From contig CAZWCA010000004.1 in assembly GCA_964632255.1 (NCBI GenBank), positions 489-64,488 of the forward strand: a stretch of 64,000 nucleotides of DNA. Reading direction: 5' to 3'. Every line of letters starts with the position of its first letter. Position 1 is the stretch's first letter. The notes beneath the pieces are model-generated. The model was not told where the DNA came from. It saw only the letters and a program-made list of their open reading frames with translations, and did no database searches. Positions 1,764-28,681 of the stretch are shown here, one piece after another. The stretch is from an uncultured Smithella sp. GTDB taxonomy: Bacteria; Desulfobacterota; Syntrophia; Syntrophales; Smithellaceae. The position numbers and the translations under genes are program-made.

Positions 1764-4292
1764 TTACAGATAATCAAGAATTGACATTTTTCCGATCTTC
1801 GCCGCCATGTTGTATGATGCCTCCATGGCTGTCTGTTCCAACTGATAGGACACGATTAATTTAGCCAGATCTACATCTTCGATCCCGGATTTCAATGACG
1901 TTATTTGTTCGTTGAGGGATGTAAGCCTTTCGCTGGTATTAGTTAAGGAGCCGGATTTGGCGCCGACTTTTGTTTGCGCCTGCAAAACCTGTGTTTGAAT
2001 ATTTTTTAAATCATCGATTTGTGCAGCCACTGCCGTTAAGTCATGATTATCCAGTGCAGTTTTCAGGGCTTTAAGCGTTTTTAAAAGATCAACTGTTCCC
2101 GGGCCATGAACTTCAATGGAGTTGACCTGTGGCTTGGTACCCGCTGTAATTTTAAAAGAAACCGTATTGCCGGTATTCCACTGGCCCGACAGAGCGATTT
2201 TTATGTCATCCGTTCCGTCATTATCGGCATCAATGGTCACTTGAGCCGCGCTCATCGAGGTTATCGTCATATGTGGATATAGGGCACTGCCGGTAATGGC
2301 CCAGCTGCCGACGGCAGCTCCCCGGGTAAGAGTAATCGTATCATCCGCAGTCAGACCGGTCCCTGCTCCGAGAACGGATGCGGAAGCAACGGGTCCGTTC
2401 GCCGCGGTAAAGGCGGAAGCCCCGGTAATGTTGTAAACAAAACTGCTGCCTTTACCGACCTGCATGGCGAGCTGGCCGTCGTTGCCCCGGTAGTAGCCGC
2501 CGGCATAACCGTTAACCGTAAACAAGTCATCAGCGGCCAGATTCTGCGTGCCTGCGGTAAAGTTCATCGTTACCCCGTCGCCTAAAGCAATAGAGGTGAA
2601 GGCGGTTGGGGTGAATGCGCCCAAAGCAAGGTTACCACCGGCAGGGTTGGTGACACTGAGGGTCATGGATAGATTGCTGGCTCCGGTCGCTTTATCTGTA
2701 AGGGTGATTTTCCCCGACGAATCGATGGCTGCCGATACCTTGCTGCTGCCGCCGAATGTTGTTTCAATTTGATCCAGCAAATCCTGCACTGTTCCTGCAG
2801 CTGCATCGGCTATCGTAAATGTATCAGGCCCGACAGCAATGCCATCGTGATCAACTCCCGAAATATCGATGGTTGTGCCGTTTTGGACATTGGCGCCGGT
2901 AATTGTGTTCCACACGGTCGCAGTTGTAATGGACAATCCGCCGGACGTATTCGCCACGCTTCCCTGAATTGTCCGGGGCGGCAGTGTTTGCTTGGCTCCC
3001 CAGGTTATACCGCCATCCGTAGATATTTTATAGGTCGCTGTTGTCAATGTTCCGCCATCAATAATTTTTACGGCGTACGTTTTGTTTTCTGTAGCCGTAT
3101 TAGTGCCGCCGGAAGCAACTGTGCCATTGAATTTATTGGCTGCGGATGCTGAGGCTGCACTAACACTGGGCGCAGCGATAGTCACCGGAATTGAAAAAAG
3201 ATCCCCGGCCGCCAGGTGATGAGTTCCCGAATCGTCAAGAGTTAAGTTTATTCCCTCGTCCAGGGGGATGGATGCCTTTGTCGATGCGGCGATGGCGCCG
3301 AAATTCAGAAAACCACCCACAGGATTGGTAATGCTCAGAGTCATCGACAGACTGCTGGCTCCGGTCGCCTGGTCCGTAAGGGTGATTCTCCCTGACGAAT
3401 CAATGGTTGCCGATACCTCGCTGCCGCCGCCGAATGTTGTTTCAATTTGATCCAGTAAATCCTGCACTGTTCCTGTAGCTGCATCGGTTATAGTAAATGT
3501 ATCAGGCCCGACAGCGTTACCATCGTGATCAAATCCTGAGATGTCAATGGTTGTGCCATTCTGGACATTACCGCCGGTAATTGTATTCCACACGGTCGCT
3601 CCCGTAATGGGTAATCCGCCGGCGATATTTGCCATGCTTCCCTGAACAATTTGAGGCGGAAAATTTTGTACCTCTCCCCAGGTTTCGCCGTTATCGGCGG
3701 AGATTTGATAAGTCGCCGCAGCCACTGTTCCGCCATCAATAATTTTTACTTTGTATGTCTTATCTTCTGTTCCCGTGTAAGTGCCGCCGGAAAGAGCTGT
3801 GCCGTCAAACTGATTGGATGCTCCCGTCTCAGCGCCTCCTATGCCGGCAACACCGGAAGTTGCCGAAAAAGGAGCGACATCCGTTCTTGATCCGCCGAAT
3901 ATATAGCTGTCGCCTGACTTGGCATTCATTAGTGATAAAGCGCTGTCAATTAAAGAAGAGGCAATCGAGGCATTGGCATCCATCGTATCCGCCGTCGTTC
4001 CAGTGGCGATAGAGCCGGCCTGGGCAAGAATGTTTTTAATGCCCTCAAGATTTGTATCCGTTAAAGACAACCATGTTTTTGCACTGGTTATATTGGTTTG
4101 GTACTGATCTATGGAGGCCAGGGTGGAAGCATAATTTAATATTTGACCGGCGCCGATGGGATTATCCGACGGCCGGTTGATATTTTTTTGCGTGGAGATC
4201 TTTTCCATCAGTTCCGCGGCTTTTCCCTGGACATTAAACAAACTGCCGGTCAGCGTAGTAAATTTCATGTTTTCCGTAACCCGGTTAATCAT
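1764..4292 (-). CDS. flgL: Flagellar hook-associated protein 3 (hook-filament junction), greatly expanded to 842 aa
   Basis: Flagellin-type N-terminus (RVTENMKF...STQKNINRPSDNPIG) and C-terminus (DLAKLIVSYQLEQTAMEASYNMAAKIGKMSILDYL). It directly follows flgK. AAAGGGGA RBS. Confidence 0.88.
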   Translation of the reverse strand: MINRVTENMKFTTLTGSLFNVQGKAAELMEKISTQKNINRPSDNPIGAGQILNYASTLASIDQYQTNITSAKTWLSLTDTNLEGIKNILAQAGSIATGTTADTMDANASIASSLIDSALSLMNAKSGDSYIFGGSRTDVAPFSATSGVAGIGGAETGASNQFDGTALSGGTYTGTEDKTYKVKIIDGGTVAAATYQISADNGETWGEVQNFPPQIVQGSMANIAGGLPITGATVWNTITGGNVQNGTTIDISGFDHDGNAVGPDTFTITDAATGTVQDLLDQIETTFGGGSEVSATIDSSGRITLTDQATGASSLSMTLSITNPVGGFLNFGAIAASTKASIPLDEGINLTLDDSGTHHLAAGDLFSIPVTIAAPSVSAASASAANKFNGTVASGGTNTATENKTYAVKIIDGGTLTTATYKISTDGGITWGAKQTLPPRTIQGSVANTSGGLSITTATVWNTITGANVQNGTTIDISGVDHDGIAVGPDTFTIADAAAGTVQDLLDQIETTFGGSSKVSAAIDSSGKITLTDKATGASNLSMTLSVTNPAGGNLALGAFTPTAFTSIALGDGVTMNFTAGTQNLAADDLFTVNGYAGGYYRGNDGQLAMQVGKGSSFVYNITGASAFTAANGPVASASVLGAGTGLTADDTITLTRGAAVGSWAITGSALYPHMTITSMSAAQVTIDADNDGTDDIKIALSGQWNTGNTVSFKITAGTKPQVNSIEVHGPGTVDLLKTLKALKTALDNHDLTAVAAQIDDLKNIQTQVLQAQTKVGAKSGSLTNTSERLTSLNEQITSLKSGIEDVDLAKLIVSYQLEQTAMEASYNMAAKIGKMSILDYL
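2145..2342 (-). repeat. Copy of the shared axial-protein insertion module (FlgL aa ~651-716)
   Basis: TITLTRGAAVGSWAITGSALYPHMTITSMSAAQVTIDADNDGTDDIKIALSGQWNTGNTVSFKIT aligns with the FlgK and FlgE copies. Confidence 0.7.
2502..3821 (-). repeat. Tandem in-frame duplication inside flgL, period 678 nt (226 codons)
   Basis: gtttcaatttgatccag... at 2761 recurs at 3439 (offset 678) with roughly 85-90 percent nucleotide identity by eye. The protein units (aa ~158-383 and ~384-597) are co-linear. Confidence 0.9.
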
Positions 4293-4305
4293 GATCGTCC
4301 CCTTT

Positions 4306-5997
4306 TTATCGGCCGAGGTTAATCAAAATATCCATCATATCCGAAATGGTTTTGGTCATTCTGCTCGCGGCATTGTAAGCCATCTGATATTTAATCAGAT
4401 TCAACATTTCTTCATCCAGAGAAACACCGGAGAGCTGTTCTCTTTGATCATTCTTCTGAGAAGCTATGGCCTGCTCGCGAGTCAGGTTTGCAGCTGCATT
4501 GGAAACATCCTGCCCGACTTTAGCAATAAATGTGCTGTAATAGCCGCTGATATTTGTCGTGCTGTCTTTTTTGGATAAAGAAAACGAAAGTGTATCGCCG
4601 GCATTCCAGAAACCGGATAAATTTAAAGTGATGTCTGCGGTGCCGTTGTTATCCAGGTCAACAGTCAACCTGCTGTCACTGGACGATAGGACAACTGCAT
4701 TGTCATAGCCGCCATTGTCGGATGCCGCGGCAATTGACCAGGAATTGGCCGTGGCCCCGCGGGTAATCACAATTGGTGAATCTGTATTTTTATAAGCTTG
4801 TCCGGTATTATTAATAATTCCCGTAGCTGAACCTGTAGCGCCTCCCCCTGCCGAAATCTGTCCCAGTGACGCATATATATTATCATCCTGAATTGCGGAC
4901 ATGGCTGCAGCATTATCGCCGTCGGCGTTGGCTGTGGCGGAAGCGGCGATCTTTCTTGTATCAGCGGCTATCGCCGCACTTACCGCCATATCCTTGGCTT
5001 CAGTAGTTTTTTTGAAAAACAAACCGCCGATATTGCCGTCCTGATCATAACCCGCCATATGTTGGGAGTTTACTTTATTGACAATGCTGGACGCTGTCTG
5101 GTTCAGATCATTAATATAAGACGGCAGGGTGACATCTCTGATATTTAATAATCCGCCCAGCTCACCCCCGGTGATTTCATTATTCAATGATGTATTCGGA
5201 TCATTGGTAAAAACGATGTCATTTAAATTAGAATTGTTGACATTCCTCTGCACTTTTAATTGCCAGTTATTGCTTTCTTCCACAAGCGCCCTGCCGCTTT
5301 CAGGCAGATAAATGTACAAAGACCCGTTGCTCTTCTCAACGTAATTAATATCAATCAGCGAGCTTATTTTGTTAAGCAGGGCGGCCCGGTTATCCCGCAG
5401 TGCCGATGCCGTACCACCCGCACTTTCTGCTGTGGCGATCCCGGCATTTAAAGAAGACATGTCTTTGAGATATCCGTTCAGCTTATCAATATCATCGGCT
5501 ATCGTCTGGTTGGCATTATTCTGGATAGTTAATAGCTGATCAGCTCTTTGATTAAAAATATAGGTGAGATTTTGGGCTGCCGATACTACTGAGTCCCTCT
5601 CGGACTGGCCCGAAGGATTGGCCGAAAGATTGTCCCAGGCGCTCCAAAAGGCGCTCAGCGCATCATTTACGCCGTTTCCCTTGCTTTCATTCAGAATACC
5701 TTCAATTTGAGTTAATAAATCCTTACGGGTTTTGGCATTGCCAACGGACGCGTTTTGCGAAACTATCTGCGATTCCAGAAATTTATCATAGACTCTCTCA
5801 ATATCGGCTATTCTTACACCGACCTGCTCCTGGCTCGATGTGGAATCACTCGAACCTACGGCTTCGAATACCGGACGAAGTCTTGTATAGCCTTCGGTAT
5901 TAACGTTGGAAATATTTGCCCCGGTAACATTGATCGCCGCCAGATTACTGAGGATAGCCTGCTGCGCCGTATATAAAACTCTTCCAATATCGCCCAT
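4306..5997 (-). CDS. flgK: Flagellar hook-associated protein 1
   Basis: N-terminus LYTAQQAILSNLAAINVTGANISNVNTEGYTR and C-terminus LDEEMLNLIKYQMAYNAASRMTKTISDMMDILINL are typical FlgK. Synteny is flgN-flgK-flgL. Confidence 0.92.
   Translation of the reverse strand: MGDIGRVLYTAQQAILSNLAAINVTGANISNVNTEGYTRLRPVFEAVGSSDSTSSQEQVGVRIADIERVYDKFLESQIVSQNASVGNAKTRKDLLTQIEGILNESKGNGVNDALSAFWSAWDNLSANPSGQSERDSVVSAAQNLTYIFNQRADQLLTIQNNANQTIADDIDKLNGYLKDMSSLNAGIATAESAGGTASALRDNRAALLNKISSLIDINYVEKSNGSLYIYLPESGRALVEESNNWQLKVQRNVNNSNLNDIVFTNDPNTSLNNEITGGELGGLLNIRDVTLPSYINDLNQTASSIVNKVNSQHMAGYDQDGNIGGLFFKKTTEAKDMAVSAAIAADTRKIAASATANADGDNAAAMSAIQDDNIYASLGQISAGGGATGSATGIINNTGQAYKNTDSPIVITRGATANSWSIAAASDNGGYDNAVVLSSSDSRLTVDLDNNGTADITLNLSGFWNAGDTLSFSLSKKDSTTNISGYYSTFIAKVGQDVSNAAANLTREQAIASQKNDQREQLSGVSLDEEMLNLIKYQMAYNAASRMTKTISDMMDILINLGR
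4573..4776 (-). repeat. Copy of the shared axial-protein insertion module (FlgK aa ~408-475)
   Basis: PIVITRGATANSWSIAAASDNGGYDNAVVLSSSDSRLTVDLDNNGTADITLNLSGFWNAGDTLSFSLS. Confidence 0.7.
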
Positions 5998-6000
5998 AAA

Positions 6001-6549
6001 TCAGCCTACCTTATGTAAGTATGTGCCGTTTCTCTGCCCTGATTTCATTTTTCCGCTCTCCAGATAAACTGTTTCCGAAGATATGATGGAATTGATAAAA
6101 TCCAGGGAGCTTTTAATATTGCCAAGCGAGGCATCCAGCAAATCTTTATTCGCTGCATTTAATGCATTGACTTCCCGTGAAATTATCGACAAATTATCAC
6201 GAATTTCCTCGATTTCTTTCCTTTGTTCAGAACCGGCGTAACCGGCTAATTGGGTGAGTTTGATATCTTTTGTATCCAGATCAAGATTACGGGCGATCTT
6301 CTTCAAGACGGTTGTTCTTGCTTCCCCCAGCATCCGTGCTTTCAGAATTATATTTTCTTTCAGGGCATTGTTCCGATTGAGTTCCTCAAGAACGGGTTTA
6401 TTGAGTATTTTCTTCTCATAAATAATCGTACTTCTCAGTTCCTGATAAACCATCAGTTCTTTTCTCAATATATCTATCAGAGAAGCAAAAATACTTTCGC
6501 AGAAATTTTCCTGTTGCGAGTTCATCAACCCCATACACTGATCGAGCAT
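6001..6549 (-). CDS. flgN: FlgN-like export chaperone for FlgK/FlgL
   Basis: 182-aa helical protein in the canonical position between flgM and flgK. Assignment rests on synteny and composition. The true start may be a later Met. Confidence 0.6.
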   Translation of the reverse strand: MLDQCMGLMNSQQENFCESIFASLIDILRKELMVYQELRSTIIYEKKILNKPVLEELNRNNALKENIILKARMLGEARTTVLKKIARNLDLDTKDIKLTQLAGYAGSEQRKEIEEIRDNLSIISREVNALNAANKDLLDASLGNIKSSLDFINSIISSETVYLESGKMKSGQRNGTYLHKVG

Positions 6550-6695
6550 AATAATATCCTTATATTAATTAGATAGTAATTTAGCTTTTGTACGCCCGCC
6601 TGAAAGCGGGCCTGAAAAAAGACGGACCGAGACCTGCCGGAAAGGAAATGCAAATGAGGAATAATCTGTTTAAATAACGGAATCTTTTTGCTTTT

Positions 6696-7004
6696 TCAGG
6701 CAAAAAGGTCAACAATTGACTCTCCCACCATTTTTCCGGCAATGTCTTCTCCACTAACGTTGTATGTGCCTTTCTCCACCTGACTTTTTATTTCCTGTAT
6801 TTTTTCTTCACGAACGTCAGGTAATTGAGACAACGTATTTTTTATTTGCTGGATATCTTTTGCCTGGGTGGAAAGATTAACTTTTTCTTCCGTTATTGTC
6901 GCCGCACCGGCATTTTGCTTATCAGAATTGACGACGTAGTTATCGTTTTTCTGATACTGCTGAACCATTTGCGAGCTTAAATCTTTAACATCGGAAATTT
7001 TCAT
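6696..7004 (-). CDS. flgM: Anti-sigma-28 factor FlgM
   Basis: 102 aa. The C-terminal IQEIKSQVEKGTYNVSGEDIAGKMV resembles the FlgM sigma-28-binding helix region. It is preceded by a sigma-28 promoter. Confidence 0.8.
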   Translation of the reverse strand: MKISDVKDLSSQMVQQYQKNDNYVVNSDKQNAGAATITEEKVNLSTQAKDIQQIKNTLSQLPDVREEKIQEIKSQVEKGTYNVSGEDIAGKMVGESIVDLFA

Positions 7005-7432: not shown

Positions 7433-8614
7433 TTAGATGATGCGTAAATCCGCCTGCAATGCGCCTGCGGCCTTGATCGTCTGCAAGATAGTGATCAAAT
7501 CGCGGGGCGAAACTCCCAGAGCGTTAAGAGCCTTCACCACATCATAAATTGTGACCCCCTGAGGAAGCATCATCAATGATCTTTTCTCTTCTGCAACATT
7601 GATCGTGGTTTGGGGAACGACAACTGTCTGTCCACCGGGAGCAATCGTTGTACCCCCAGGACCGAGAGCAGGAGTGGTCAAACCGGCAGGAGCACCGGGA
7701 GCAAAAGGCAGCGGTTGCGATACCCGGGCGTCCTCTTTTATCTGAATGCTGAGGTTTCCATGGGCAATAGCCACCGTTGATATACGTACATTGTCGCCCA
7801 TGACAACTGTACCGGTTTTCTCATTTAACATGACCACAGCGGCGGCATCGACTGGAACATCAAGAGATTCAATAAAATAAACAAGCTCGGACAAAGATCC
7901 TTCAAACGAATCTCTTGCTTTTACCGAGACTGAAATGGAATCAATTTGTTTTGCTTCAACAAAAGATATCGTTTTATTGATCATTGCGGCCATTCTGGTG
8001 GTAGTGGTGAAGTCAGGACGCAGTAAATTAATTACCAGTGATCGCCGTTGATCAAAATCATACTTAAGTTCTTTCTCGACAAAGGCCCCATTGGCAATAT
8101 TGCCGGCTGTAGTATGATTTTTCGATACACTTCCTGCAGCTCCGCTCGCTGAAAATCCTCCCAATGTCACGGCTCCCTGCGCTACTGCATATACTTCACC
8201 GTCAACACCGCGAAGCGGAGTTAATAAAAGCGTTCCGCCCAAAAGACTTTTTGATGATCCTAAAGATGAAACACTTACATCGATTTTCGTGCCGATTTTG
8301 GCAAAAGGAGGCAGTGCGGCGGTGACCATAACAGCGGCTACGTTATCTGCTTTTAAATTCGATATTTTATCTTTCATGGAAAGCCCCTGCCTGACCATCA
8401 TGTTGGCGAGAGATTCCTGAGTAAAAAGATTTTTTGTCAAGTCATCTCCGGTTCCGGCCAAACCAACAACCATCCCATAACCGATCAACTGGTTATCCCT
8501 GACCCCGCCGATCGCTGCAATATCTTTTATACGGGCGGCAAACACAGTGCTTGTCAATAGCAGCAGTGTCAATAAAACTATGGCCGAATAAATTGTAATT
8601 CCACCTTTATTCAT
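7433..8614 (-). CDS. flgI: Flagellar P-ring protein
   Basis: The ORF extends to 8698, but ATG 8614 has a GGGAG RBS and lies after the flgH stop. A signal peptide is followed by RIKDIAAIGGVRDNQLIGYGMVVGLAGTGD. The C-terminus is IKAAGALQADLRII. Confidence 0.93.
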   Translation of the reverse strand: MNKGGITIYSAIVLLTLLLLTSTVFAARIKDIAAIGGVRDNQLIGYGMVVGLAGTGDDLTKNLFTQESLANMMVRQGLSMKDKISNLKADNVAAVMVTAALPPFAKIGTKIDVSVSSLGSSKSLLGGTLLLTPLRGVDGEVYAVAQGAVTLGGFSASGAAGSVSKNHTTAGNIANGAFVEKELKYDFDQRRSLVINLLRPDFTTTTRMAAMINKTISFVEAKQIDSISVSVKARDSFEGSLSELVYFIESLDVPVDAAAVVMLNEKTGTVVMGDNVRISTVAIAHGNLSIQIKEDARVSQPLPFAPGAPAGLTTPALGPGGTTIAPGGQTVVVPQTTINVAEEKRSLMMLPQGVTIYDVVKALNALGVSPRDLITILQTIKAAGALQADLRII

Positions 8615-8658
8615 TTTTCCACTCCCGCCGGTTTTACTGAATTCTTTAAAATTTTTAC

Positions 8659-9429
8659 TTAAAAAGGCCATACCCAATCCACAACTCTCGTCAGCCATCC
8701 CGGCCTCATTTTGTCATTGATTACACCATCACCCGTGTAAACTATCCGGGCATCGGCTATGTATCGTGAAGCTACGGTATTATCAGCCGAAACATCTTCC
8801 GGCCGGATAATGCCGGAAATGATGATAAACTGGTCTTCGGCATTGACGGTCAGGTGTCTTCTCCCTTCAATTAACATATTACCGTTATCCAGCACTCTTA
8901 AGACACGGGCGCTGATTCTTGCTTCCAGCGAGCTGCTGCGGTCGGTGTCCCCCGCTCCTTTGAGTGAATTGCTGGATGTCCCGCTCAAAGCGATTTTTCC
9001 ATTCATGTTGGCATTTTTACCGATAATTTCATTCTCCAGTCCTAAAAGTGATGTAATGGCGGCTGATGTGCTGGTATCCCTGCTGGTATTCGTTGAAGCT
9101 TTGTTTCCGCCGGCTGCTGTTTCCGAAACAATTATGGTAACAAGATCATTCATATAGCGCGCTTTTTTAGCCGAACAAATCAAATTATTGCCGTTTTCAC
9201 CATTCCAGATGGAGCCTGCCACAGGTTGAGACCGAATTACATGGGGAGGAACAATAACATTATTATCCAGATGCGCCTTTTCCGCTTTTTGTGCAGCACA
9301 ACCGGTTAATATAAAGACTGTCAACACCAGTAAATTAGAAATCATCTTAATCTTTTTTCCGGCAAAACATAATTGCGTTTGCTCACTTATCTTCATCGAT
9401 CGTCTGTTATTCCGGATTCTATTCAACAT
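8659..9429 (-). CDS. flgH: Flagellar L-ring lipoprotein
   Basis: Lipobox LTGC, then LVTIIVSETAAG...LKGAGDTDRSSSLEARISARV...GNMLIEGRR...IISGIIRPEDV. GGAG RBS before ATG 9429. Later Mets (9396, 9345) are possible starts. Confidence 0.9.
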   Translation of the reverse strand: MLNRIRNNRRSMKISEQTQLCFAGKKIKMISNLLVLTVFILTGCAAQKAEKAHLDNNVIVPPHVIRSQPVAGSIWNGENGNNLICSAKKARYMNDLVTIIVSETAAGGNKASTNTSRDTSTSAAITSLLGLENEIIGKNANMNGKIALSGTSSNSLKGAGDTDRSSSLEARISARVLRVLDNGNMLIEGRRHLTVNAEDQFIIISGIIRPEDVSADNTVASRYIADARIVYTGDGVINDKMRPGWLTRVVDWVWPF

Positions 9430-9441
9430 GAGAAAACTCCA

Positions 9442-10179
9442 TTATCTAAAATCAACTCTAACTTTTGATTCCCCGATTACCCGGGCATAAATAATTTTAT
9501 TGGATGTAATATTGCGTACTCTGACAAAAGATCCCTCAGCGCCATCCTCTTCGGCCATACCCGTGGTGGTAATATTTATCGGGCCGTTTTCCAGAATAAC
9601 CTGTACCATTTTATGTCTTCTCACGGCTGTAACTTCTTTGATCATATTACGAGTAATTTCAGTATTTTGACGTAGACTGACGCCAAGTGACTTACCAATG
9701 ACTTCATCAATCGCGGATATTGAATTTATCGGAATTGAACGAACCCATCTTTTCTGAACAAAGACGTCGTCTTCATTAATAATGGTTTCTCTGCTTAAAT
9801 TTTTGGCGCTGAGAACAAATCCCTGGAGAATTTCAATTCTTACTTTGATTGGCTCTTCTTTAAACAAAACCCCTTTATGATAAAGTTTCAGGACAAAGTA
9901 TGTATCACCAAGGTAACCTTCGTTTCCTTTAATCTCCACTTTCCAGGCAACCTTCTTTGATGGCAGAACAAACTCAGGCAGTGGTGAAAGTACTTCAAAG
10001 CGCACGGTATCTTTCGCCCATGGCATATTTTTTTCTATACTCAATCCAATTGCCTTATTCAGTTGTTCCTGATCAATTAACGGCTTTTCCGCGGCCGATA
10101 AAATTCCCGGCTTAAGGCAAATGAGCAGAAAAGATATAACAGAAAAAATTATTAATTTGCCGCCAAGTAGTTTAAACAT
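9442..10179 (-). CDS. flgA: P-ring assembly chaperone FlgA
   Basis: Signal peptide. The C-terminal SAF-like part is GKSLGVSLRQNTEITRNMI...GAEGSFVRVRNITSNKIIYARVIG. Position is between flgG and flgH. Confidence 0.85.
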   Translation of the reverse strand: MFKLLGGKLIIFSVISFLLICLKPGILSAAEKPLIDQEQLNKAIGLSIEKNMPWAKDTVRFEVLSPLPEFVLPSKKVAWKVEIKGNEGYLGDTYFVLKLYHKGVLFKEEPIKVRIEILQGFVLSAKNLSRETIINEDDVFVQKRWVRSIPINSISAIDEVIGKSLGVSLRQNTEITRNMIKEVTAVRRHKMVQVILENGPINITTTGMAEEDGAEGSFVRVRNITSNKIIYARVIGESKVRVDFR

Positions 10180-11929: not shown

Positions 11930-12208
11930 TTATCTTTGATTTTCATTGATTGAATAAACGAAGGCAAGAATTTCAGCTACGGCCCGGTACAATTCCACCG
12001 GAATTTCAGCACCGACCTTTAATTTACTCAATACCTGGATTAAGTCGGGATCATTCTTGACGGGGATGTCATTGTTCTGCGCTATTGCGATTATTTTCTC
12101 TGCAATAAGACCGCGTCCGCTTGCCGTTACTTTCGGAGCATTATCCTTTGCACTGTCATACTTTATTGCAGCAGCCAGAGTTTGTTCCGGTTTCGTCTGT
12201 TTTTTCAT
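11930..12208 (-). CDS. Stand-alone FlhB C-terminal (FlhB-CC) like protein, YlqH/FhlB-domain type
   Basis: The 92-aa protein aligns to the flhB product of this window after its NPTH site. LAAAIKYDSAKDNAPKVTASGRGLIAEKI...IPVELYRAVAEILAFVY aligns with HLAVAVKYDPENMMAPKVVAKGANLIAEKI...IPEDLYRAVAEVLAFVY. The NPTH motif is absent. Confidence 0.85.
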   Translation of the reverse strand: MKKQTKPEQTLAAAIKYDSAKDNAPKVTASGRGLIAEKIIAIAQNNDIPVKNDPDLIQVLSKLKVGAEIPVELYRAVAEILAFVYSINENQR

Positions 12209-12365: not shown

Positions 12366-13523
12366 TTACACAAAAAAATTGACCAAATTATCAGCGAAAA
12401 AAGATTGACTTGATAAAAATTCTTCCTTCTTCTGCATAAGCCCTTCTTCCTGAATACAATCAATATAGCCGACCTGATAACCGGTCTTCGCCAGTGAATT
12501 TTTAAGTTTATCGAGATCACTGCTGATTAAATTTTTGACTTCTTCTTTTTCACATTTGATTACGCAATTGAAACTTCCTTCACGAACATTTGCCTTGACC
12601 GCAATCTTCCCTAAGCAATCCAAGTCCAAAAAAATGGCGACTGAGCAGGAGGAAAATTTTTTTATCGCCTCGGGATTTTTTCCCTCCGGAGTAATAAATA
12701 TATCCGCCAAACGAAAACCATCGGCCAGGGCTATTGGAATTTGCAACATCAATCCATTTTCACTCTCCTGAAAAACCGAATTGATTATCTGATGTACTTC
12801 GAGAGTGTTGATTGCGTCATCAGTGAATGACGCGATATTGACAAGCTTCGCCATGATTCCGTCATCAAGCTTCGGGTTTTCCCTTAGAATAGCATTTATG
12901 GAAATTGCTATTTTTTGTAATAAAGTTTTTAAATTATCCTCCTGCGGATTTTCCATTCCCGCTTCAACCATGCCGGCGACAAGTTGTTTCAATGAATTTC
13001 CCTGAATTAAACCGATTCGGGAAACAAACTCTTTTAAAAATAAGGGATTATTCATAGTGCGTGGTGAAAATATGACTTTTTCAAATAATTTTATTAATTT
13101 TTCAAGATCACTTTTAAAAATTGCCGACGCCGGTTCTCCGGAATGAAAAAGTTTGGCAAGTCCGGCGAATTTATCAATAACCTGCAAAAATGATTCGGGA
13201 TTCATCCTCCATTGCAATAATTTTTCATTAATTTGCGCATTATTTTGACTTTTTCTGTCGATAATATTTAAAAAAATTTGCGGCTGCAGATTGTCGACTC
13301 TTACCAGTAGTTTTTCGCCTCTATTCAAAGGAATATCGCTTATTGCCGAAGCCTGCTGATTCTTCCAGGCAAGGATATATTTGTTGCCGGCCAGCTTTTC
13401 CAAAACAGTTGCTTCGATGGTTTCTCCCAAAACCAGCCCCGAAAGAGCTCCATTGGAACGGACTGTTGCTACGTTACTTTCAATTGTGATGTTGTTGGCT
13501 TGAGATATTGATGTGATAAACAT
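12366..13523 (-). CDS. Second FliK-like protein (hook-length-control-type C-terminal domain)
   Basis: The C-terminal SVAIFLDLDCLGKIAVKANVREGSFNCVIKCEKEEVKNLISSDLDKLKNSLAKTGYQVG parallels the canonical FliK motif seen in the 29400..31079 gene (ITLDPPSLGRLEMDVTVRNGKVDVVLVADNKDVQQTLNIHIDKLKGGLQNQGLTI). Confidence 0.55.
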   Translation of the reverse strand: MFITSISQANNITIESNVATVRSNGALSGLVLGETIEATVLEKLAGNKYILAWKNQQASAISDIPLNRGEKLLVRVDNLQPQIFLNIIDRKSQNNAQINEKLLQWRMNPESFLQVIDKFAGLAKLFHSGEPASAIFKSDLEKLIKLFEKVIFSPRTMNNPLFLKEFVSRIGLIQGNSLKQLVAGMVEAGMENPQEDNLKTLLQKIAISINAILRENPKLDDGIMAKLVNIASFTDDAINTLEVHQIINSVFQESENGLMLQIPIALADGFRLADIFITPEGKNPEAIKKFSSCSVAIFLDLDCLGKIAVKANVREGSFNCVIKCEKEEVKNLISSDLDKLKNSLAKTGYQVGYIDCIQEEGLMQKKEEFLSSQSFFADNLVNFFV

Positions 13524-15239: not shown

Positions 15240-15875
15240 CTACATAATAACATAGTTAGTAAAGTAAATATTTTTAACAAAGCCGGCGCCCAGCGTTTTA
15301 TTTAATTCCTGTAATAATTCTTTTTTCAAATTATTTCGTTCTTCAATGGATCTTAAGGCTACGGCGCTTCTCCCTGTTACAGTTTGGTATATTATATTTC
15401 TAATGTCTTCTCTATTTTCTAATCCGGCAAGGTTTTCCGCCGTATTTACCACAAGAACGAAATCACATGCCAGAATTTTGCTTTTACCTGCTTTATCCTT
15501 TAAATCAATTAAAAAATCTTTAAAATTTACGCTTTTTTCTATTACGGGTTGGACTGCAGCCCGTCCATTTACCATATCAGCATCTTGAAATTTCTTCTCT
15601 ATTACAATTGACGCTGTTTCTGTGGGCGCTTTGGATTGTTTTGGTGCGATATTTGTTGTTCGGGCAAAATAAAACCATAAAAAACCAACCATGATGAGAA
15701 CCACGATTACTACAGGAGCAAAAATTACAAGAAGCTTATTTAAAGCCCATTTTTCCGAAGTTACAGGAAGCGGCAATTCCGGGTCAATCGGAATTGTGTC
15801 ATCTATCAAATCTATGTCAGGCAAATCTATATCAGGCAGATTCTCAATGACATCTAATTTTGCTTTTTTTACCAT
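15240..15875 (-). CDS. FliL-family paralogue
   Basis: One TM segment (LLVIFAPVVIVVLIMVGFLWFYF). The C-terminal FliL signature is FKDFLIDLKD...ILACDFVLVV...REDIRNIIYQ...KELLQELNKTLG..FVKNIYFTNYVI. The N-terminus has a LPDIDLPDIDL repeat. Confidence 0.7.
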   Translation of the reverse strand: MVKKAKLDVIENLPDIDLPDIDLIDDTIPIDPELPLPVTSEKWALNKLLVIFAPVVIVVLIMVGFLWFYFARTTNIAPKQSKAPTETASIVIEKKFQDADMVNGRAAVQPVIEKSVNFKDFLIDLKDKAGKSKILACDFVLVVNTAENLAGLENREDIRNIIYQTVTGRSAVALRSIEERNNLKKELLQELNKTLGAGFVKNIYFTNYVIM

Positions 15876-15890
15876 AGCTATAGGAAAAAT

Positions 15891-17508: not shown

Positions 17509-17527
17509 ATATCTCCTTGGCAACAAA

Positions 17528-26554: not shown

Positions 26555-28681
26555 TTATTGTTTAATGCTCATCAATACCGACATCATTTGATCCTCGGTT
26601 GTTACAACTTTAGCATTGGCCTGATAAGCCTTTTGCGCTGTAATCATTTTAACGAACTCCGAAGCGATATCCGTGTTGGACATTTCCAGTGTACTTGGGG
26701 TCAGTGAGCCCATTCCGGAAGCACCCGGTATATTGCGGAGTGATGATCCGGAGGTGATGGTTTCACCAAAAAGATTTTTTCCCAATTTACTGAGCCCCCA
26801 TGGATTGGGAAATGAAGCCAGAATAAGTTGCGCAAGTTCAGATGTCTGACCGTTGGTAAAAAATCCGCTGATTTTGCCGTCGTTATCAATGGATAATGAC
26901 TTTAGCTGACCGGAGGCGTAACCATCGGCGCTTATGGAACGGGTAACCGAAGAGGAAGAGTATTGCGTAATATCAAGGGCGCCATCTCCTACCAATTTCC
27001 ATTTTATATTCCCTTCAGTGCCAATTGTCGCCCCCCCGTTAAGAGGCGGAGTGGTATAAGTAAGTGTAATATCATTAATGGCTGAGGGTGTATTGGTCAG
27101 TGTGAAGACCGCCGTGTCTCCGTTAGCCCAAACACTGGTAGGGGTTAAAGTTATATCTGTAGTACCGGTACCGTCGAGACTGATCGTGACAGGTTCTGTA
27201 AGACCGGGGGAAGTCACAATGGCTTTAGCATATACGCTACCGCCTTCTACACGCCAGGCCGCCCCATCTCTGGTTATCCGTATTTCTCCTGTCTGATAAA
27301 TCATGCCCGGCCGGTCAAGTGTAACTGTTGCCGTAGACGCATCGGGAACATTATTCAGTGTAAATGTGGCCGTATCATCGTTCGCCCAGGTGCCGGCTAA
27401 AGCTAAATGCGCATCTGTTATACCATCACCATCAAGATCGACATTCACTGTTGTCGCGTTGGCGGAAACAATATTGGCATTGGTGTATCCGCCTTTGTTA
27501 GAGATTGACCAGGAGTTGGTGCTGATATCATCGCACTTTAAAGTCATTGTACCGGTCAGAGAAACCGCTCCCGGATGATCCAGAGCGGCAGTTGCGGTAG
27601 CAGCGTGAGTCAAGCTTAAAGATACTGTGCCATCGGCTCCGGCAGTTGCCGGAGTAAAATGTAAATCAGGGCCACCCACACCGTCGAGATTAATGTTGAT
27701 TACACCGCCGACATCAGTTAAAGTGGCTCCGGCAAAGCCGCCGTCATTGGAAAGGGTCCAAGTTCCGGCAACCTCATCCCATGAGCAAACTAAGTTACCT
27801 ACGCTGTTTTTATAAATATTTGCCGCCTGATCTACAATAATTCCGCCTGGTACAGTAATTCCGCCCGTCGTTCCGGCAAGAGCAGCTGAACTGGCGTGAG
27901 AAACAGTACCGACACTGCTCACTGTATTATGCTCGGCTGTGATCGTACTGGAGGTTCCCGTGTACAACCCCGTGCAAATACCATCAGAATTAAAAATAAA
28001 TCCGTTGGCGGAAATTGAATTTACCGGGCTTGAATCCAGAAAGCATTGCACCGACCAGCAACTGGCCGAATCATCCGCTCCGGCATATGCTGTTTTAGTA
28101 AAAGTGGTATTCAACGTATGTTTGGCACCCAGAGAATCATACACGGTTTGCGTCGTGGTATATTTTCCGCCGGTGGCGGTTGTGGCATTTAAATTAGCGC
28201 CTAGAGAAACGGTTGTGGTCACAGCAGGCGCAGATTGCAGCCCCTGCAGATTAATATCTCCCAGAGGACTCAACACACCGTTTATAATCATTTGCCCCTG
28301 AACTTTATAATCATTGATATCCACCAGCAGACCATCGGAATTCAAATGAAACGCACCTGCGCGGGTATAATAAGTACCGCCTTCGGCGTCGTTTACCATA
28401 AAGAAGCCGTCCCCATCAATGGCCGTGTCCGTAGCGTTGCCTGTGGACTGAAATGATCCGGCGCCGAATTGCGTCTGAACTTCGGAAACGGCAACACCAC
28501 GCCCCACCTGCATTGTTCCCGATGCACCGCCCGAAATACTGGAACTCAATACATCTCCAAAGAACGTCTCGCCGGATTTAAAACCGATTGTATTCACATT
28601 AGCCAGATTGTTGGCAATAACGTCCAGTTGCTTGGAGCTGGCGCTTAATCCCGATATCCCCGCCCATAGTGCACTGCCCAT
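26555..28681 (-). CDS. flgE: Flagellar hook protein, expanded (708 aa)
   Basis: N-terminal SGLSASSKQLDVIANNLANVNTIGFK, DGDGFFMV, and C-terminal LEMSNTDIASEFVKMITAQKAYQANAKV. It lies downstream of flgD. Confidence 0.94.
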   Translation of the reverse strand: MGSALWAGISGLSASSKQLDVIANNLANVNTIGFKSGETFFGDVLSSSISGGASGTMQVGRGVAVSEVQTQFGAGSFQSTGNATDTAIDGDGFFMVNDAEGGTYYTRAGAFHLNSDGLLVDINDYKVQGQMIINGVLSPLGDINLQGLQSAPAVTTTVSLGANLNATTATGGKYTTTQTVYDSLGAKHTLNTTFTKTAYAGADDSASCWSVQCFLDSSPVNSISANGFIFNSDGICTGLYTGTSSTITAEHNTVSSVGTVSHASSAALAGTTGGITVPGGIIVDQAANIYKNSVGNLVCSWDEVAGTWTLSNDGGFAGATLTDVGGVININLDGVGGPDLHFTPATAGADGTVSLSLTHAATATAALDHPGAVSLTGTMTLKCDDISTNSWSISNKGGYTNANIVSANATTVNVDLDGDGITDAHLALAGTWANDDTATFTLNNVPDASTATVTLDRPGMIYQTGEIRITRDGAAWRVEGGSVYAKAIVTSPGLTEPVTISLDGTGTTDITLTPTSVWANGDTAVFTLTNTPSAINDITLTYTTPPLNGGATIGTEGNIKWKLVGDGALDITQYSSSSVTRSISADGYASGQLKSLSIDNDGKISGFFTNGQTSELAQLILASFPNPWGLSKLGKNLFGETITSGSSLRNIPGASGMGSLTPSTLEMSNTDIASEFVKMITAQKAYQANAKVVTTEDQMMSVLMSIKQ
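27092..27835 (-). repeat. Three tandem copies of the shared insertion module inside FlgE (aa ~283-530)
   Basis: Copy A: LVCSWDEVAGTWTLSNDGGFAGATL...VININLDGVGGPDL. Copy B: LKCDDISTNSWSISNKGGYTNANIV...VNVDLDGDGITDAHLALAGTWANDDTATFTL. Copy C: IRITRDGAAWRVEGGSVYAKAIV...VTISLDGTGTTDITLTPTSVWANGDTAVFTL. Confidence 0.75.

What the first reader, a model, noticed from the sequence alone, without database searches (positions are those of the whole stretch)
2145..4776. The same module also sits in FlgK and FlgL, so one decoration domain is shared by hook, HAP1 and HAP3
FlgK aa ~408-475 reads PIVITRGATANSWSIAAASDNGGYDNAVVLSSSDSRLTVDLDNNGTADITLNLSGFWNAGDTLSFSLS. FlgL aa ~651-716 reads TITLTRGAAVGSWAITGSALYPHMTITSMSAAQVTIDADNDGTDDIKIALSGQWNTGNTVSFKIT. 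Both align residue for residue with the FlgE units. In all three proteins the module lies just before the C-terminal axial helix. Sharing one variable-region domain across three different axial proteins suggests domain shuffling. It may also indicate a common partner or a continuous surface layer along hook and junction. I am not aware of this being described.
Basis: partly seen in the sequence, partly recalled or inferred. Interest (0 to 1): 0.75.

Follow-up and report, generated by a model that had tools for sequence, protein, structure and literature searches.

The report
Shared surface domain on hook and junction
Three different building blocks of this bacterium's flagellum (the hook protein FlgE and the two hook-filament junction proteins FlgK and FlgL) carry copies of one small, previously uncatalogued surface domain that comes and goes as a roughly 100-residue cassette among related deltaproteobacterial genomes, which makes it a clear case of domain shuffling inside a molecular machine but one whose function is still only inferred.

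Summary
FlgK aa 408-475, FlgL aa 652-716 and three FlgE units are homologous. Composition-preserving shuffles give z = 12-21, and BLASTP of FlgK against FlgL gives 41% identity at E about 1e-12. HMMs built only from other genomes' copies recover every window copy and nothing else in the window.

The module matches no Pfam-A or NCBIfam family. It has no PDB relative by sequence or by Foldseek. An exhaustive HMM search of 1.84 billion cluster representatives placed near-full-length copies almost only in flagellar axial proteins: 24 FlgE, 12 FlgL, 7 FlgK and 1 flagellin. All named sources are Syntrophales or Desulfobacterales.

The module behaves as a cassette of about 100 aa. Relatives carry 0-3 copies in FlgE, 0-2 in FlgK and 0-1 in FlgL (two in one distant FlgL). 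The closest relative lacks it cleanly in all three genes.

Copies group by gene, not by genome. An L-type copy also occurs as an extra module in some FlgKs. So the shuffling is old, followed by vertical descent with gain and loss.

The core resembles one FG-GAP-type repeat with a DxDxDGxxD loop, which suggests calcium binding.

Any role as an outer layer on hook and junction is inferred, not shown. This is a new variant of a known kind, of moderate interest.

The parts
4306..5997 (-). flgK (HAP1), 563 aa
   Evidence: PF22638 FlgK_D1 at 1.7e-56; TIGR02492 at 305 bits against a cut-off of 171. The AF2 model matches solved FlgK structures 9go6, 2d4y, 4ut1 and 5xbj.
4564..4866 (-). FlgK cassette, aa 378-478 (101 aa). 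It consists of a Gly/Ala/Ser-rich lead-in plus the module. It is inserted between the conserved 'ADGDNA...' segment and the C-terminal D1 helix.
   Evidence: It is absent as one clean block from the 462-aa ortholog P0011 / locus L001, which is 84.8% identical in all aligned columns. pLDDT is about 85-90 in the whole-FlgK AF2 model, with extra strands at aa 382-395.
4573..4776 (-). FlgK module core, aa 408-475. The loop DLDNNGTAD fits D-x-[DN]-x-[DN]-G-x-x-D.
   Evidence: The AF2 model of the module alone has pLDDT 89.9.
1764..4292 (-). flgL (HAP3), 842 aa
   Evidence: TIGR02550 at 200.7 bits against a cut-off of 127; Flagellin_N and Flagellin_C.
2106..2399 (-). FlgL cassette, aa 632-729 (98 aa), inserted directly before the C-terminal helix (…AFTA | cassette | GPGTVDLL…).
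   Evidence: It is absent as one block from the 497-aa FlgL of the closest relative, locus L001.
2145..2339 (-). FlgL module core, aa 652-716. The loop DADNDGTDD is canonical.
26555..28681 (-). flgE (hook), 708 aa
   Evidence: Flg_bb_rod, LlgE_F_G_D1, FlgE_D2 and Flg_bbr_C; TIGR03506 at 296 bits.
27056..27964 (-). FlgE insertion, about aa 240-542, in a loop of domain D2. It holds three tandem modules.
   Evidence: The 405-aa ortholog P0319 (83% identical in aligned columns) lacks about 304 aa here. PF07559 FlgE_D2 matches only aa 162-255, upstream of the insert.
27608..27799 (-). FlgE module 1, aa 295-358. It is degenerate: the loop is NLDGVGGPD and the second Trp is lost.
   Evidence: The foreign-FlgE HMM scores it 1e-12 and the foreign-FlgK HMM 1.5e-5.
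27353..27553 (-). FlgE module 2, aa 377-443. The loop DLDGDGITD is canonical.
27095..27289 (-). FlgE module 3, aa 465-529. The loop SLDGTGTTD is relaxed.

Best explanation
**What it is (shown).** The module is a lineage-restricted protein domain. Its core is about 70-80 aa and the cassette with its Gly/Ser-rich lead-in is about 100 aa. It is inserted into the non-axial, variable parts of three different flagellar axial proteins.
- FlgE carries three tandem copies in a loop of domain D2.
- FlgK carries one copy immediately before the C-terminal D1 helix.
- FlgL carries one copy immediately before the C-terminal D1 helix.

**How it got there (shown or strongly indicated).** The domain was duplicated and moved among these genes in an ancestor within the Desulfobacterota, covering Syntrophales and Desulfobacterales. 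Each gene's copy has since evolved vertically, with frequent gain and loss of whole cassettes.

**Origin (suggestive).** The first two thirds of the module resemble one FG-GAP_3-type repeat unit. This includes the D-x-[DN]-x-[DN]-G-x-x-D loop, which binds calcium in such repeats.

**How it most likely works (inferred).**
1. Axial proteins are exported unfolded through the flagellar type III channel, so they must fold at the tip.
2. A small, autonomously folding beta domain, perhaps stabilised by calcium, suits that route.
3. It would end up on the outer surface of the hook. I estimate roughly 120 FlgE subunits with 3 modules each, from my own knowledge of hook size.
4. It would also sit on the two 11-subunit junction rings.
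5. There it most likely forms an extra outer layer whose lateral contacts stiffen or protect the hook and keep the outer lattice matched across the hook/junction boundary. This would be analogous to the D3/D4 domains of Campylobacter FlgE and their contact with FlgK.

**Confidence split.** About 0.85 for the identity and evolutionary statements, and about 0.35 for the mechanical outer-layer role.
For: **Homology.**

**Specificity to flagellar axial proteins.** The exhaustive HMM search of 1.84e9 representatives gave 281 hits at E <= 1e-3. Of the top 150, 48 carry a near-full-length module:
- 24 FlgE, 12 FlgL, 7 FlgK and 1 flagellin.
- 3 short fragments that could not be classified.
- 1 VCBS/tandem-95 repeat protein.

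**Taxa.** Smithella and Smithellaceae, Syntrophaceae, Syntrophales, Desulfobacterales, Desulfobotulus, Desulfobacterium, Desulfobacula, Desulfobacteraceae and Thermodesulfobacteriota.

**Cassette behaviour.**
- FlgK orthologs: 0 modules in 7, 1 in 99, 2 in 14, at about 462, 560 and 665 aa.
- FlgE orthologs: 0 in 14, 1 in 77, 2 in 19, 3 in 10, at about 403, 510, 610 and 700-745 aa.
- The closest relative is 79-82% identical at nucleotide level, with both contigs from sample SRR22334944. It lacks the cassette as clean blocks in flgK (101 aa), flgL (98 aa) and flgE (about 304 aa).

**By gene, not by genome.** In 100 bootstrap resamplings, the nearest neighbour of each window copy was usually a same-gene copy from another genome:
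- K 100%, L 96%, E3 100%, E1 87%, E2 67%.
- Another window copy was nearest in at most 1%.

Identity of the window FlgK module to other K copies has a median of 56%, against 39% to its own FlgL copy.

**Shuffling.** The first module of two-module FlgKs groups with FlgL modules.

**Fold.**
- AF2 of the module alone: pLDDT 89.9, six strands and one helix.
- The cassette region in the whole-FlgK model has pLDDT about 85-90.

**FG-GAP link.**
- The 102 partial hits match profile positions of about 19-63 in 5-6 stretches each. The ten I scanned are FG-GAP or FG-GAP_3 proteins.
- hhalign of the module profile against the FG-GAP-unit profile gives probability 92.5%, E 4.8e-7 and score 34.4. Reversed or column-shuffled controls score at most 12.6.

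**Motif conservation.** W22 100%, Y30 94%, D46 84%, [DN]48 89%, D54 92%.

**Co-occurrence.**
- Module-less FlgK goes with module-less FlgL in 3 of 3 loci, against FlgL with a module in 11 of 13 loci where FlgK has one (Fisher p = 0.018, uncorrected for phylogeny).

**Analogy.** In Campylobacter, FlgK domain D2 is modelled to contact the extra FlgE D3/D4 domains, and FlgL is enlarged (PMC5691160). The junction is 11 FlgK plus 11 FlgL subunits (PMC12221982).
Against: - No structure, localisation or phenotype exists for any of these proteins. All sources are uncultured MAGs or metagenomes.
- I had no access to model coordinates. I could not show that the module points outward or that modules touch each other on the lattice.
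- The canonical acidic loop is present in only about half of the copies: 64 of 132 FlgK, 4 of 14 FlgL and 6 of 39 FlgE. Calcium binding therefore cannot be general.
- Module load is not matched between genes. Locus L004 pairs a two-module FlgK with a module-less FlgL, locus L008 pairs a one-module FlgK with a module-less FlgL, and FlgE ranges from 1 to 3 copies with FlgK fixed at 1. Whole lineages do without the module. It is therefore dispensable for assembly.
- Exact-clade bootstrap support in the module tree is low, at most 46%.
- The FG-GAP units used for the profile comparison came from proteins that had been picked up by the module HMM. That E-value is therefore optimistic.
Confidence: 0.55

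Rival explanations
1. The module is a variable surface decoration with no mechanical role. It is an exposed, dispensable domain whose gain, loss and divergence are driven by escape from flagellotropic phages, predators or other surface recognition. Alternatively it simply drifts because outer domains are unconstrained.
For: - Copy number differs between close relatives, and the nearest relative lost the module completely.
- Module load is not matched between FlgK, FlgL and FlgE.
- Module sequences diverge faster than the cores. The window FlgK module is 56% identical (median) to other K modules, while the core of the closest ortholog is about 85% identical.
- Variable outer domains are the rule in flagellins (PMC6248924, PMC8306008).
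Against: - Key residues are strongly conserved across two orders (W22 100%, Y30 94%, D54 92%). The module is retained in 113 of 120 FlgK orthologs and 106 of 120 FlgE orthologs. This argues for purifying selection on a function.
- The apparently coordinated absence in all three genes of one genome is not expected for independent drift.
- The hook and junction are a tiny, proximal target compared with the filament.
Confidence: 0.22
2. The module is an adhesion or partner-recognition domain. It would bind a ligand on a syntrophic partner, a surface or a polysaccharide, possibly in a calcium-dependent way as FG-GAP propellers and many bacterial adhesins do.
For: - The hosts include syntrophic propionate oxidisers (Smithella). 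Flagellum-mediated contact with methanogens has been proposed for Pelotomaculum through FliD (PMC8892533, citing Shimoyama 2009).
- The module has FG-GAP-like similarity and a DxDxDG loop.
Against: - The module sits on the hook and junction, which are short and close to the cell. In the one Smithellaceae locus where flagellin and FliD could be read, both lack it (locus L004).
- Only one flagellin representative carries it.
- It also occurs in Desulfobacterales such as Desulfobacula and Desulfobotulus.
- The acidic loop is degenerate in many copies.
Confidence: 0.1
3. The module has an export or assembly role. Because it abuts the C-terminal helix of FlgK and FlgL, it could modulate FlgN chaperone binding, export order or polymerisation rather than act on the finished structure.
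For: - It sits immediately N-terminal to the C-terminal D1 helix in both FlgK and FlgL.
- flgN lies directly upstream of flgK.
Against: - In FlgE the module lies in a D2 loop, far from both termini. From my own knowledge, FlgE does not use FlgN.
- Close relatives assemble the same gene set without the module.
- An export signal would not be expected in 1-3 or more tandem copies.
Confidence: 0.05
4. The similarity is chance or compositional, arising between Thr/Ser/Gly/Asp-rich beta segments.
For: - The segments are compositionally biased.
- FlgE unit 1 is only weakly similar to the FlgK and FlgL copies (z = 4.6 and 2.6).
Against: - Composition-preserving shuffles give z = 12-21 for the other pairs.
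- Independent HMMs give E from 1e-10 to 1e-23, and 1.5e-5 or 1e-12 for unit 1.
- No other ORF of the window matches.
Confidence: 0.01

Closest known systems
Extra outer domains D3/D4 of Campylobacter or Helicobacter FlgE, with the co-adapted FlgK and enlarged FlgL (PDB 5jxl, 5xbj, 9gsx; PMC5691160)
   Same: - Extra domains are inserted in FlgE domain D2 and lie on the outside of the hook.
- The junction proteins of the same organism are also enlarged.
- The FlgK outer domain is modelled to contact the extra hook domains, so hook and junction change together.
   Different: - In Campylobacter the extra domains of FlgE, FlgK and FlgL are not reported to be one homologous module.
- Here the same domain family is in all three proteins.
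- There is no detectable sequence or fold relation. TIGR02489 and 5jxl match only the FlgE ends, and Foldseek of the module finds no PDB hit.
FG-GAP, FG-GAP_3 and VCBS repeats (PF01839, PF13517): blades of integrin-alpha-type beta-propellers with a DxDxDGxxD calcium loop
   Same: - The order of conserved elements matches: hydrophobic strand, Arg, Trp, aromatic residue, strand, then D-x-D-G-D-G-x-x-D-I.
- The profile-profile match covers module columns 9-56 (probability 92.5%, E 4.8e-7), well above the controls.
- FG-GAP proteins are the only non-flagellar hits of the module HMM among those I classified.
   Different: - The modules reach no Pfam FG-GAP model even at E <= 10.
- They occur singly or as 2-3 linker-separated copies, not as a seven-blade propeller.
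- They carry an extra C-terminal hairpin (L-x-G-x-W-x-x-G-D-T-x-x-F-x-L).
- AF2 folds one copy as a stand-alone domain.
- The FG-GAP HMM finds no unit in any of the flagellar proteins.
Flagellin hook IN motif (Pfam PF07196 Flagellin_IN). From my own knowledge, this is a short repeated motif shared by flagellins, FliD and hook-related proteins.
   Same: It is a precedent for one sequence element recurring in the variable regions of several different flagellar axial or cap proteins.
   Different: - It is a different sequence family. PF07196 does not match FlgE, FlgK or FlgL of this window at E <= 1, nor the isolated modules at E <= 10.
- My literature search for it was uninformative.
Outer domains D2/D3 of Salmonella and Burkholderia FlgK (PDB 9go6, 2d4y, 4ut1)
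   Same: They are surface-exposed non-helical domains of FlgK. The whole-FlgK AF2 model superposes on these structures through the helical core.
   Different: - The module lies at a different insertion point, after the conserved GDN segment and directly before the C-terminal D1 helix. Salmonella FlgK and the 462-aa orthologs have nothing there.
- In the module region the phmmer alignment to 9go6 has only low posterior probability.

Membership tests
FG-GAP / FG-GAP_3 repeat (PF01839, PF13517) | Match to the Pfam family HMM at or above the gathering score | tested here: not met
   None of the 17 module sequences matches an FG-GAP model even at E <= 10. Whole FlgE, FlgK and FlgL show no FG-GAP hit at E <= 1. 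An HMM built from FG-GAP_3 units finds no unit in any flagellar protein.
FG-GAP / FG-GAP_3 repeat (PF01839, PF13517) | D-x-[DN]-x-[DN]-G-x-x-D calcium-binding loop following a beta strand | tested here: inconclusive
   The loop is present in the window's FlgK, FlgL and FlgE-2 copies, relaxed in FlgE-3 and lost in FlgE-1. Across homologs it is canonical in 64 of 132 FlgK, 4 of 14 FlgL and 6 of 39 FlgE copies. Calcium binding itself was not tested.
FG-GAP / FG-GAP_3 repeat (PF01839, PF13517) | Profile-profile similarity over a whole repeat unit | tested here: met
   hhalign gives probability 92.5%, E 4.8e-7 and 47 aligned columns. Reversed and column-shuffled controls score at most 12.6 against 34.4. 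Caveat: the FG-GAP units came from proteins pre-selected by the module HMM.
FG-GAP / FG-GAP_3 repeat (PF01839, PF13517) | Tandem array of about seven units closing a beta-propeller | tested here: not met
   There are 1-3 copies per protein here, separated by linkers of about 20-30 aa. A single copy is predicted to fold alone with pLDDT 89.9.
Flagellin hook IN motif (PF07196) | Match to the PF07196 HMM | tested here: not met
   There is no hit in FlgE, FlgK or FlgL at E <= 1, nor in the isolated modules at E <= 10.
FlgE D2 domain (PF07559) | Module lies within the region matched by the PF07559 HMM | tested here: not met
   PF07559 matches FlgE aa 162-255 only. The modules at aa 295-529 are an insertion that is absent from the 405-aa ortholog.
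Epsilonproteobacterial FlgE outer domains D3/D4 (TIGR02489; PDB 5jxl) | Sequence or fold similarity to D3/D4 | tested here: not met
   TIGR02489 scores 202 bits, below its cut-off of 413, and its best stretch covers only aa 555-708. 5jxl aligns only to aa 500-708. Foldseek of the module against PDB gives a best E of 0.88 and no flagellar protein in the list shown.
Known FlgK outer domains (PDB 9go6, 2d4y, 4ut1, 5xbj) | Homologous position and alignable sequence | tested here: not met
   The cassette lies between the GDN segment and the C-terminal D1 helix, where Salmonella FlgK and the 462-aa orthologs have no domain. The module profile has no PDB sequence hit better than E 0.14.
FlgK, FlgL and FlgE (the host proteins themselves) | Family HMMs above the curated cut-off, plus conserved N- and C-terminal axial segments | tested here: met
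   TIGR02492 scores 305.5 bits (cut-off 170.75). TIGR02550 scores 200.7 bits (cut-off 127.2). TIGR03506 scores 295.9 bits (cut-off 70.25). The terminal Pfam domains are also present.

The most novel reading that the evidence does not exclude
The module may be a domesticated beta-propeller blade. On the assembled flagellum it would pack side by side with copies from neighbouring subunits, helped by calcium. This would form a continuous proteinaceous outer sleeve running from the hook through the FlgK and FlgL rings, built from one domain family carried by three different axial proteins. The sleeve would be gained or lost as a unit. The closest relative lacks the module in flgE, flgK and flgL at once, and in some genomes the L-type copy is carried by FlgK instead of FlgL.
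Probability: 0.15. Interest if true: 0.7.

Novelty: new variant of a known kind. Interest (0 to 1): 0.45.

Why it matters
Variable outer domains on flagellar axial proteins are well known. However, they are usually treated gene by gene, and mostly for flagellin.

Here one uncatalogued domain family is shared by the hook protein, both junction proteins and, rarely, a flagellin. Its cassette boundaries are clean and its copy number varies among close relatives. This gives three things:
- **A natural experiment.** Natural variants with 0, 1, 2 or 3 modules already exist. They can show what outer domains do for the mechanics of the hook and junction, and how neighbouring parts of the lattice stay compatible when one part changes.
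- **A well-documented case of domain shuffling** between paralogous and non-paralogous subunits of one machine.
- **A candidate new Pfam-type family**, with a possible origin from FG-GAP repeats and a testable calcium-binding loop.

It does not overturn any principle of flagellar biology. All carriers are uncultured or hard-to-grow anaerobes, which limits how soon it can be tested.

Tried and rejected
- **Word-indexed profile search.** Running the five-copy profile through the search for homologous proteins returned nothing because of the word-index limit. The exhaustive representative search replaced it.
- **Locus search with the 17-sequence alignment.** It was repeated with five close FlgK modules.
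- **Searches for a known relative.** The PDB profile search and Foldseek of the module found nothing. The weak Foldseek tail contained a few WD40-type propeller proteins (Gβ, mLST8, UTP15) at E > 2, which I do not count as evidence.
- **First bootstrap run.** It was invalid because the Kimura distance produced NaN at high divergence. It was redone with a cap. Exact-clade support stayed low, so I rely on nearest-neighbour frequencies and identity medians.
- **Pairing module-less FlgE with module-less FlgK.** Matching by assembly accession failed because the assemblies differ. Only one such pair exists, and it rests on a shared sample plus matching identity to the window.
- **Reaching flagellin and FliD of this genome.** The FlgL look-up was \"not on record\". 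The FlgK look-up returned a 9.8-kb contig that ends inside flgL.
- **Literature.** Searches found no description of the module. The PF07196 query was swamped by unrelated text.
- **Rejected explanations.** Chance or compositional similarity; membership of FlgE_D2 or Flagellin_IN; homology to Campylobacter D3/D4; recent intragenomic spread or gene conversion, since the window copies are only 15-39% identical to each other.

Full report
**1. What is there**

The window is a flagellar gene cluster from a Smithella/Smithellaceae-type bacterium (Syntrophales). Orthologs that carry names are annotated Smithella sp., Smithellaceae, Syntrophaceae or Deltaproteobacteria.

Three genes matter here:
- ORF 1764..4292 (-) is FlgL, 842 aa. 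TIGR02550 scores 200.7 bits.
- ORF 4306..5997 (-) is FlgK, 563 aa. FlgK_D1 scores 1.7e-56 and TIGR02492 scores 305 bits.
- ORF 26555..28681 (-) is FlgE, 708 aa.

- FlgK aa 408-475, window 4573-4776.
- FlgL aa 652-716, window 2145-2339.
- FlgE units at aa 295-358, 377-443 and 465-529.

**2. Is the similarity real?**

Yes. Against 500 composition-preserving shuffles the local alignment scores give these z values:

| Pair | z |
|---|---|
| K against L | 21.5 |
| K against E2 | 13.5 |
| K against E3 | 12.5 |
| L against E2 | 12.0 |
| L against E3 | 12.0 |
| E2 against E3 | 19 |

FlgE unit 1 is degenerate. It scores z = 4.6 against K, 2.6 against L and 8.7 against E2.

BLASTP of the full proteins finds only this segment in common. 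K against L is 41% identical at E about 1e-12.

HMMs built without any window sequence remove circularity:
- A FlgK-only HMM from other genomes hits the window's FlgL at 1.5e-16. It hits FlgE units 1, 2 and 3 at 1.5e-5, 7.7e-18 and 2.5e-10.
- A FlgE-only HMM hits FlgK at 2.4e-23 and FlgL at 1.3e-19.

Nothing else in the six-frame translation of the window matches.

**3. Is it a known domain?**

I found no evidence that it is.
- Pfam-A and NCBIfam models cover only the axial parts of the three proteins.
- The 17 isolated modules hit no Pfam family consistently, even at E <= 10.
- A profile search of PDB sequences gives nothing better than E 0.14.
- The AF2 model of the module has pLDDT 89.9, with six strands and one helix. 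It has no Foldseek match in PDB; the best E is 0.88.
- Solved FlgK, FlgE and FlgL structures align only through the conserved cores.
- Six literature searches found no description.

**4. Where else does it occur?**

An exhaustive HMM search of 1.84 billion 50%-identity cluster representatives returned 281 proteins at E <= 1e-3 and 41 at E <= 1e-10. Among the best 150, 48 have a near-full-length module:
- 24 are FlgE, 12 are FlgL, 7 are FlgK and 1 is a flagellin.
- 3 are short fragments I could not classify.
- 1 is a VCBS/tandem-95 repeat protein.

The other 102 match only profile positions of about 19-63, in 5-6 stretches each. The ten I scanned are FG-GAP or FG-GAP_3 repeat proteins.

Named sources and GTDB species genomes place the module in these groups:
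- Smithella and Smithellaceae.
- Syntrophaceae and Syntrophales.
- Desulfobacterales, Desulfobotulus, Desulfobacterium, Desulfobacula and Desulfobacteraceae.
- \"Thermodesulfobacteriota\".

In Desulfobacterium and Desulfobacula loci the module again sits in more than one axial gene.

**5. Cassette behaviour**

Copy number among the closest orthologs:

| Protein | Copies: number of orthologs (typical length) | Source |
|---|---|---|
| FlgK (120 closest) | 0: 7 (about 462 aa); 1: 99 (about 560 aa); 2: 14 (about 665 aa) | |
| FlgE (120 closest) | 0: 14 (about 403 aa); 1: 77 (about 510 aa); 2: 19 (about 610 aa); 3: 10 (700-745 aa) | |

The closest relative of the window is represented by two contigs from sample SRR22334944. 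They are 79% and 82% identical to the window at nucleotide level. Its proteins are FlgK 462 aa, FlgL 497 aa and FlgE 405 aa, and none carries the module.

Global alignments to this relative show the window-only blocks as clean units:
- FlgK aa 378-478, 101 aa.
- FlgL aa 632-729, 98 aa.
- FlgE about aa 240-542, about 304 aa for three units.

The unit of gain and loss is therefore about 100 aa: a Gly/Ala/Ser-rich lead-in plus the core of about 70 aa. In the whole-FlgK AF2 model the entire cassette is confidently folded, with pLDDT about 85-90 and extra strands at aa 382-395.

**6. Insertion sites**

In FlgK the cassette lies between the conserved \"ADGDNA…\" segment and the C-terminal D1 helix. 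Salmonella FlgK and the 462-aa orthologs have nothing at this site.

In FlgL it lies directly before the C-terminal helix.

In FlgE it lies in a loop of domain D2. PF07559 matches only aa 162-255, upstream of the insert. The rest of D2, D1 and D0 follow it.

**7. By gene or by genome?**

I aligned 99 non-redundant modules over 77 columns and built a neighbour-joining tree. It shows three patterns:
- A large FlgK group.
- An FlgL group that also contains the first module of two-module FlgKs.
- Several FlgE groups.

Exact-clade bootstrap support is low, at most 46%, as expected for so short an alignment.

The nearest-neighbour frequencies are clear, however. In 100 resamplings, the nearest neighbour of each window copy was usually a same-gene copy from another genome. 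The rates were K 100%, L 96%, E3 100%, E1 87% and E2 67%. Another window copy was nearest in at most 1%.

Identity values point the same way:
- The window FlgK module is 56% identical (median) to other K modules, and 39% to its own FlgL copy.
- The window FlgL module is 50% identical (median) to the L group, and 34% to the K group.

The spread across genes is therefore old, and there is no concerted evolution. The L-type copy inside FlgK of other genomes (loci L004, L007, L012) shows that cassettes did move between the adjacent flgL and flgK genes.

**8. Do the three genes change together?**

Only partly.

FlgK and FlgL in the same locus:

| FlgK modules | FlgL status | Loci |
|---|---|---|
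| 0 | no module | L001, L002, L019 (3 of 3) |
| 1 or more | one module | 11 of 13 |
| 2 | no module | L004 |
| 1 | no module | L008 |

This table draws. Fisher's one-sided test gives p = 0.018. It is not corrected for phylogeny.

All have at least one module in each, but FlgE varies from 1 to 3 copies while FlgK stays at 1.

In locus L004, a 1001-aa FliD and a 491-aa flagellin lack the module.

This pattern fits a loose functional coupling. It does not fit a strict one-to-one partnership.

**9. Relation to FG-GAP**

The consensus of the module is:

…I-x-L-T-R-G-A-x-x-x-W-T-I-x-x-N-G-G-Y-…-V-T-x-D-L-D-G-D-G-T-A-D-I-T-L-x-L-x-G-x-W-x-x-G-D-T-x-x-F-x-L.

Conservation at key positions is W22 100%, Y30 94%, D46 84%, [DN]48 89% and D54 92%.

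The FG-GAP_3-type unit from the partial hits reads:

D-x-A-V-Y-R-P-x-x-G-x-W-Y-…-G-F-…-P-V-P-A-D-Y-D-G-D-G-K-x-D.

hhalign aligns module columns 9-56 to it with probability 92.5% and E 4.8e-7. The score is 34.4, against at most 12.6 for reversed or column-shuffled controls.

The loop fits the DxDxDG-type calcium motif. That assignment rests on established knowledge of the motif, not on a test here. The window's FlgK, FlgL and FlgE-2 copies have the canonical form.

There are three caveats:
- The FG-GAP units came from proteins that were picked up by the module HMM.
- The modules fail the Pfam FG-GAP models.
- They are not arranged as a propeller.

I therefore treat this as a likely distant origin, not as family membership.

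**10. Mechanism**

*Shown.* This is a domain family restricted to the variable regions of flagellar axial proteins. It is inserted as a cassette, and it is conserved yet dispensable.

*Inferred.*
- Axial proteins leave the cell unfolded, so the module must fold on its own outside. A small beta domain, possibly locked by calcium, suits this.
- The insertion points are those from which known outer domains project, namely FlgE D2 and the return to the C-terminal D1 helix in FlgK and FlgL. The modules should therefore lie on the outside of the hook and of the two 11-subunit junction rings (PMC12221982).
- The best analogue is Campylobacter. There, extra FlgE domains D3/D4 are modelled to contact FlgK domain D2, and FlgL is enlarged (PMC5691160).
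- I therefore favour an extra outer layer that stabilises the hook and junction and keeps their outer lattice compatible, at a confidence of about 0.35.

*Rivals.*
- A functionally neutral or escape-driven decoration (0.22).
- An adhesion or partner-contact domain (0.1). Flagellum-mediated syntrophy has been proposed for FliD of Pelotomaculum (PMC8892533).
- An export or assembly role (0.05).

**11. Verdict**

Outer-domain decoration and co-adaptation of hook and junction are known. A single homologous cassette shared by FlgE, FlgK, FlgL and, rarely, flagellin, with per-gene copy-number variation, appears undescribed. I rate it as a new variant of a known kind, with interest 0.45.

Noticed in passing
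window 2514-3860 (- strand), FlgL aa 145-368 and 371-593: FlgL contains a tandem duplication of about 225 aa at roughly 70% identity (score 741). Each unit has an Asp-box-like S-x-D-x-G-x-T-W motif (Pfam BNR, sub-threshold at E 2.6e-4). Each unit also has an inner sub-domain (window-only blocks of 126 and 124 aa) that is missing from the 497-aa FlgL of the closest relative. FlgL therefore carries at least two further kinds of variable outer domain besides the module.
   Followed up: partly
window 2001-4000: GC content rises to 0.516, against 0.40-0.46 in neighbouring 2-kb windows. The rise coincides with the Gly/Ala/Thr-rich outer-domain part of flgL. This is probably an amino-acid composition effect rather than foreign DNA, but I did not test that.
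   Followed up: no
window 12366-13523 and 11930-12208 (- strand); also 29400-31079: The cluster has two FliK-like genes. In orthologous loci both carry PF02120 Flg_hook: a 559-aa one upstream of flgD and flgE, and a 385-aa one. The 385-aa gene sits next to a stand-alone 92-aa ORF that resembles the FlhB C-terminal domain (PF01312 in loci L021 and L001).
   Followed up: no
locus L021 (Logan contig from sample SRR9860463, same strain as the window), 7959-9842: The short-read contig that carries the identical FlgK ends inside flgL after 628 of 842 codons. The internal 225-aa repeat probably breaks the assembly. Module and repeat counts in FlgL taken from fragmented assemblies may therefore be underestimates.
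   Followed up: no
locus L004 (Smithellaceae GCA_053578255.1), 15488-18493 and 18859-20334: This relative has a 1001-aa FliD and a 491-aa flagellin. Both are large and neither carries the module. Its FlgK has two modules and its FlgL (402 aa) has none.
   Followed up: partly
loci L017 and L018 (Desulfobacula) 2721-6965; proteins P0124, P0140 and P0219: Module-bearing axial proteins can be giant elsewhere. Examples are FlgK of about 1415 aa in Desulfobacula, FlgE of 1114 aa (Desulfobacterales) and 1124 aa (source unnamed) with up to five module-like stretches, and FlgL of 1422 aa.
   Followed up: no
locus L001 14593-16733 (closest relative, beyond the window's left end): In the closest relative, the TPR gene next to flgL is followed by a minimal 272-aa flagellin, an unassigned 155-aa ORF, then flbT and flaF. 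The corresponding region of this genome lies just outside the window and could not be fetched.
   Followed up: no
window 4306-5997 (FlgK) in the protein collection: The window's exact FlgK is filed in a 90%-identity cluster whose representative is a 52-aa fragment. As a result the homology search did not return it, and the best listed hit was only 79% identical. This is a technical trap when judging whether a genome is in the database.
   Followed up: yes
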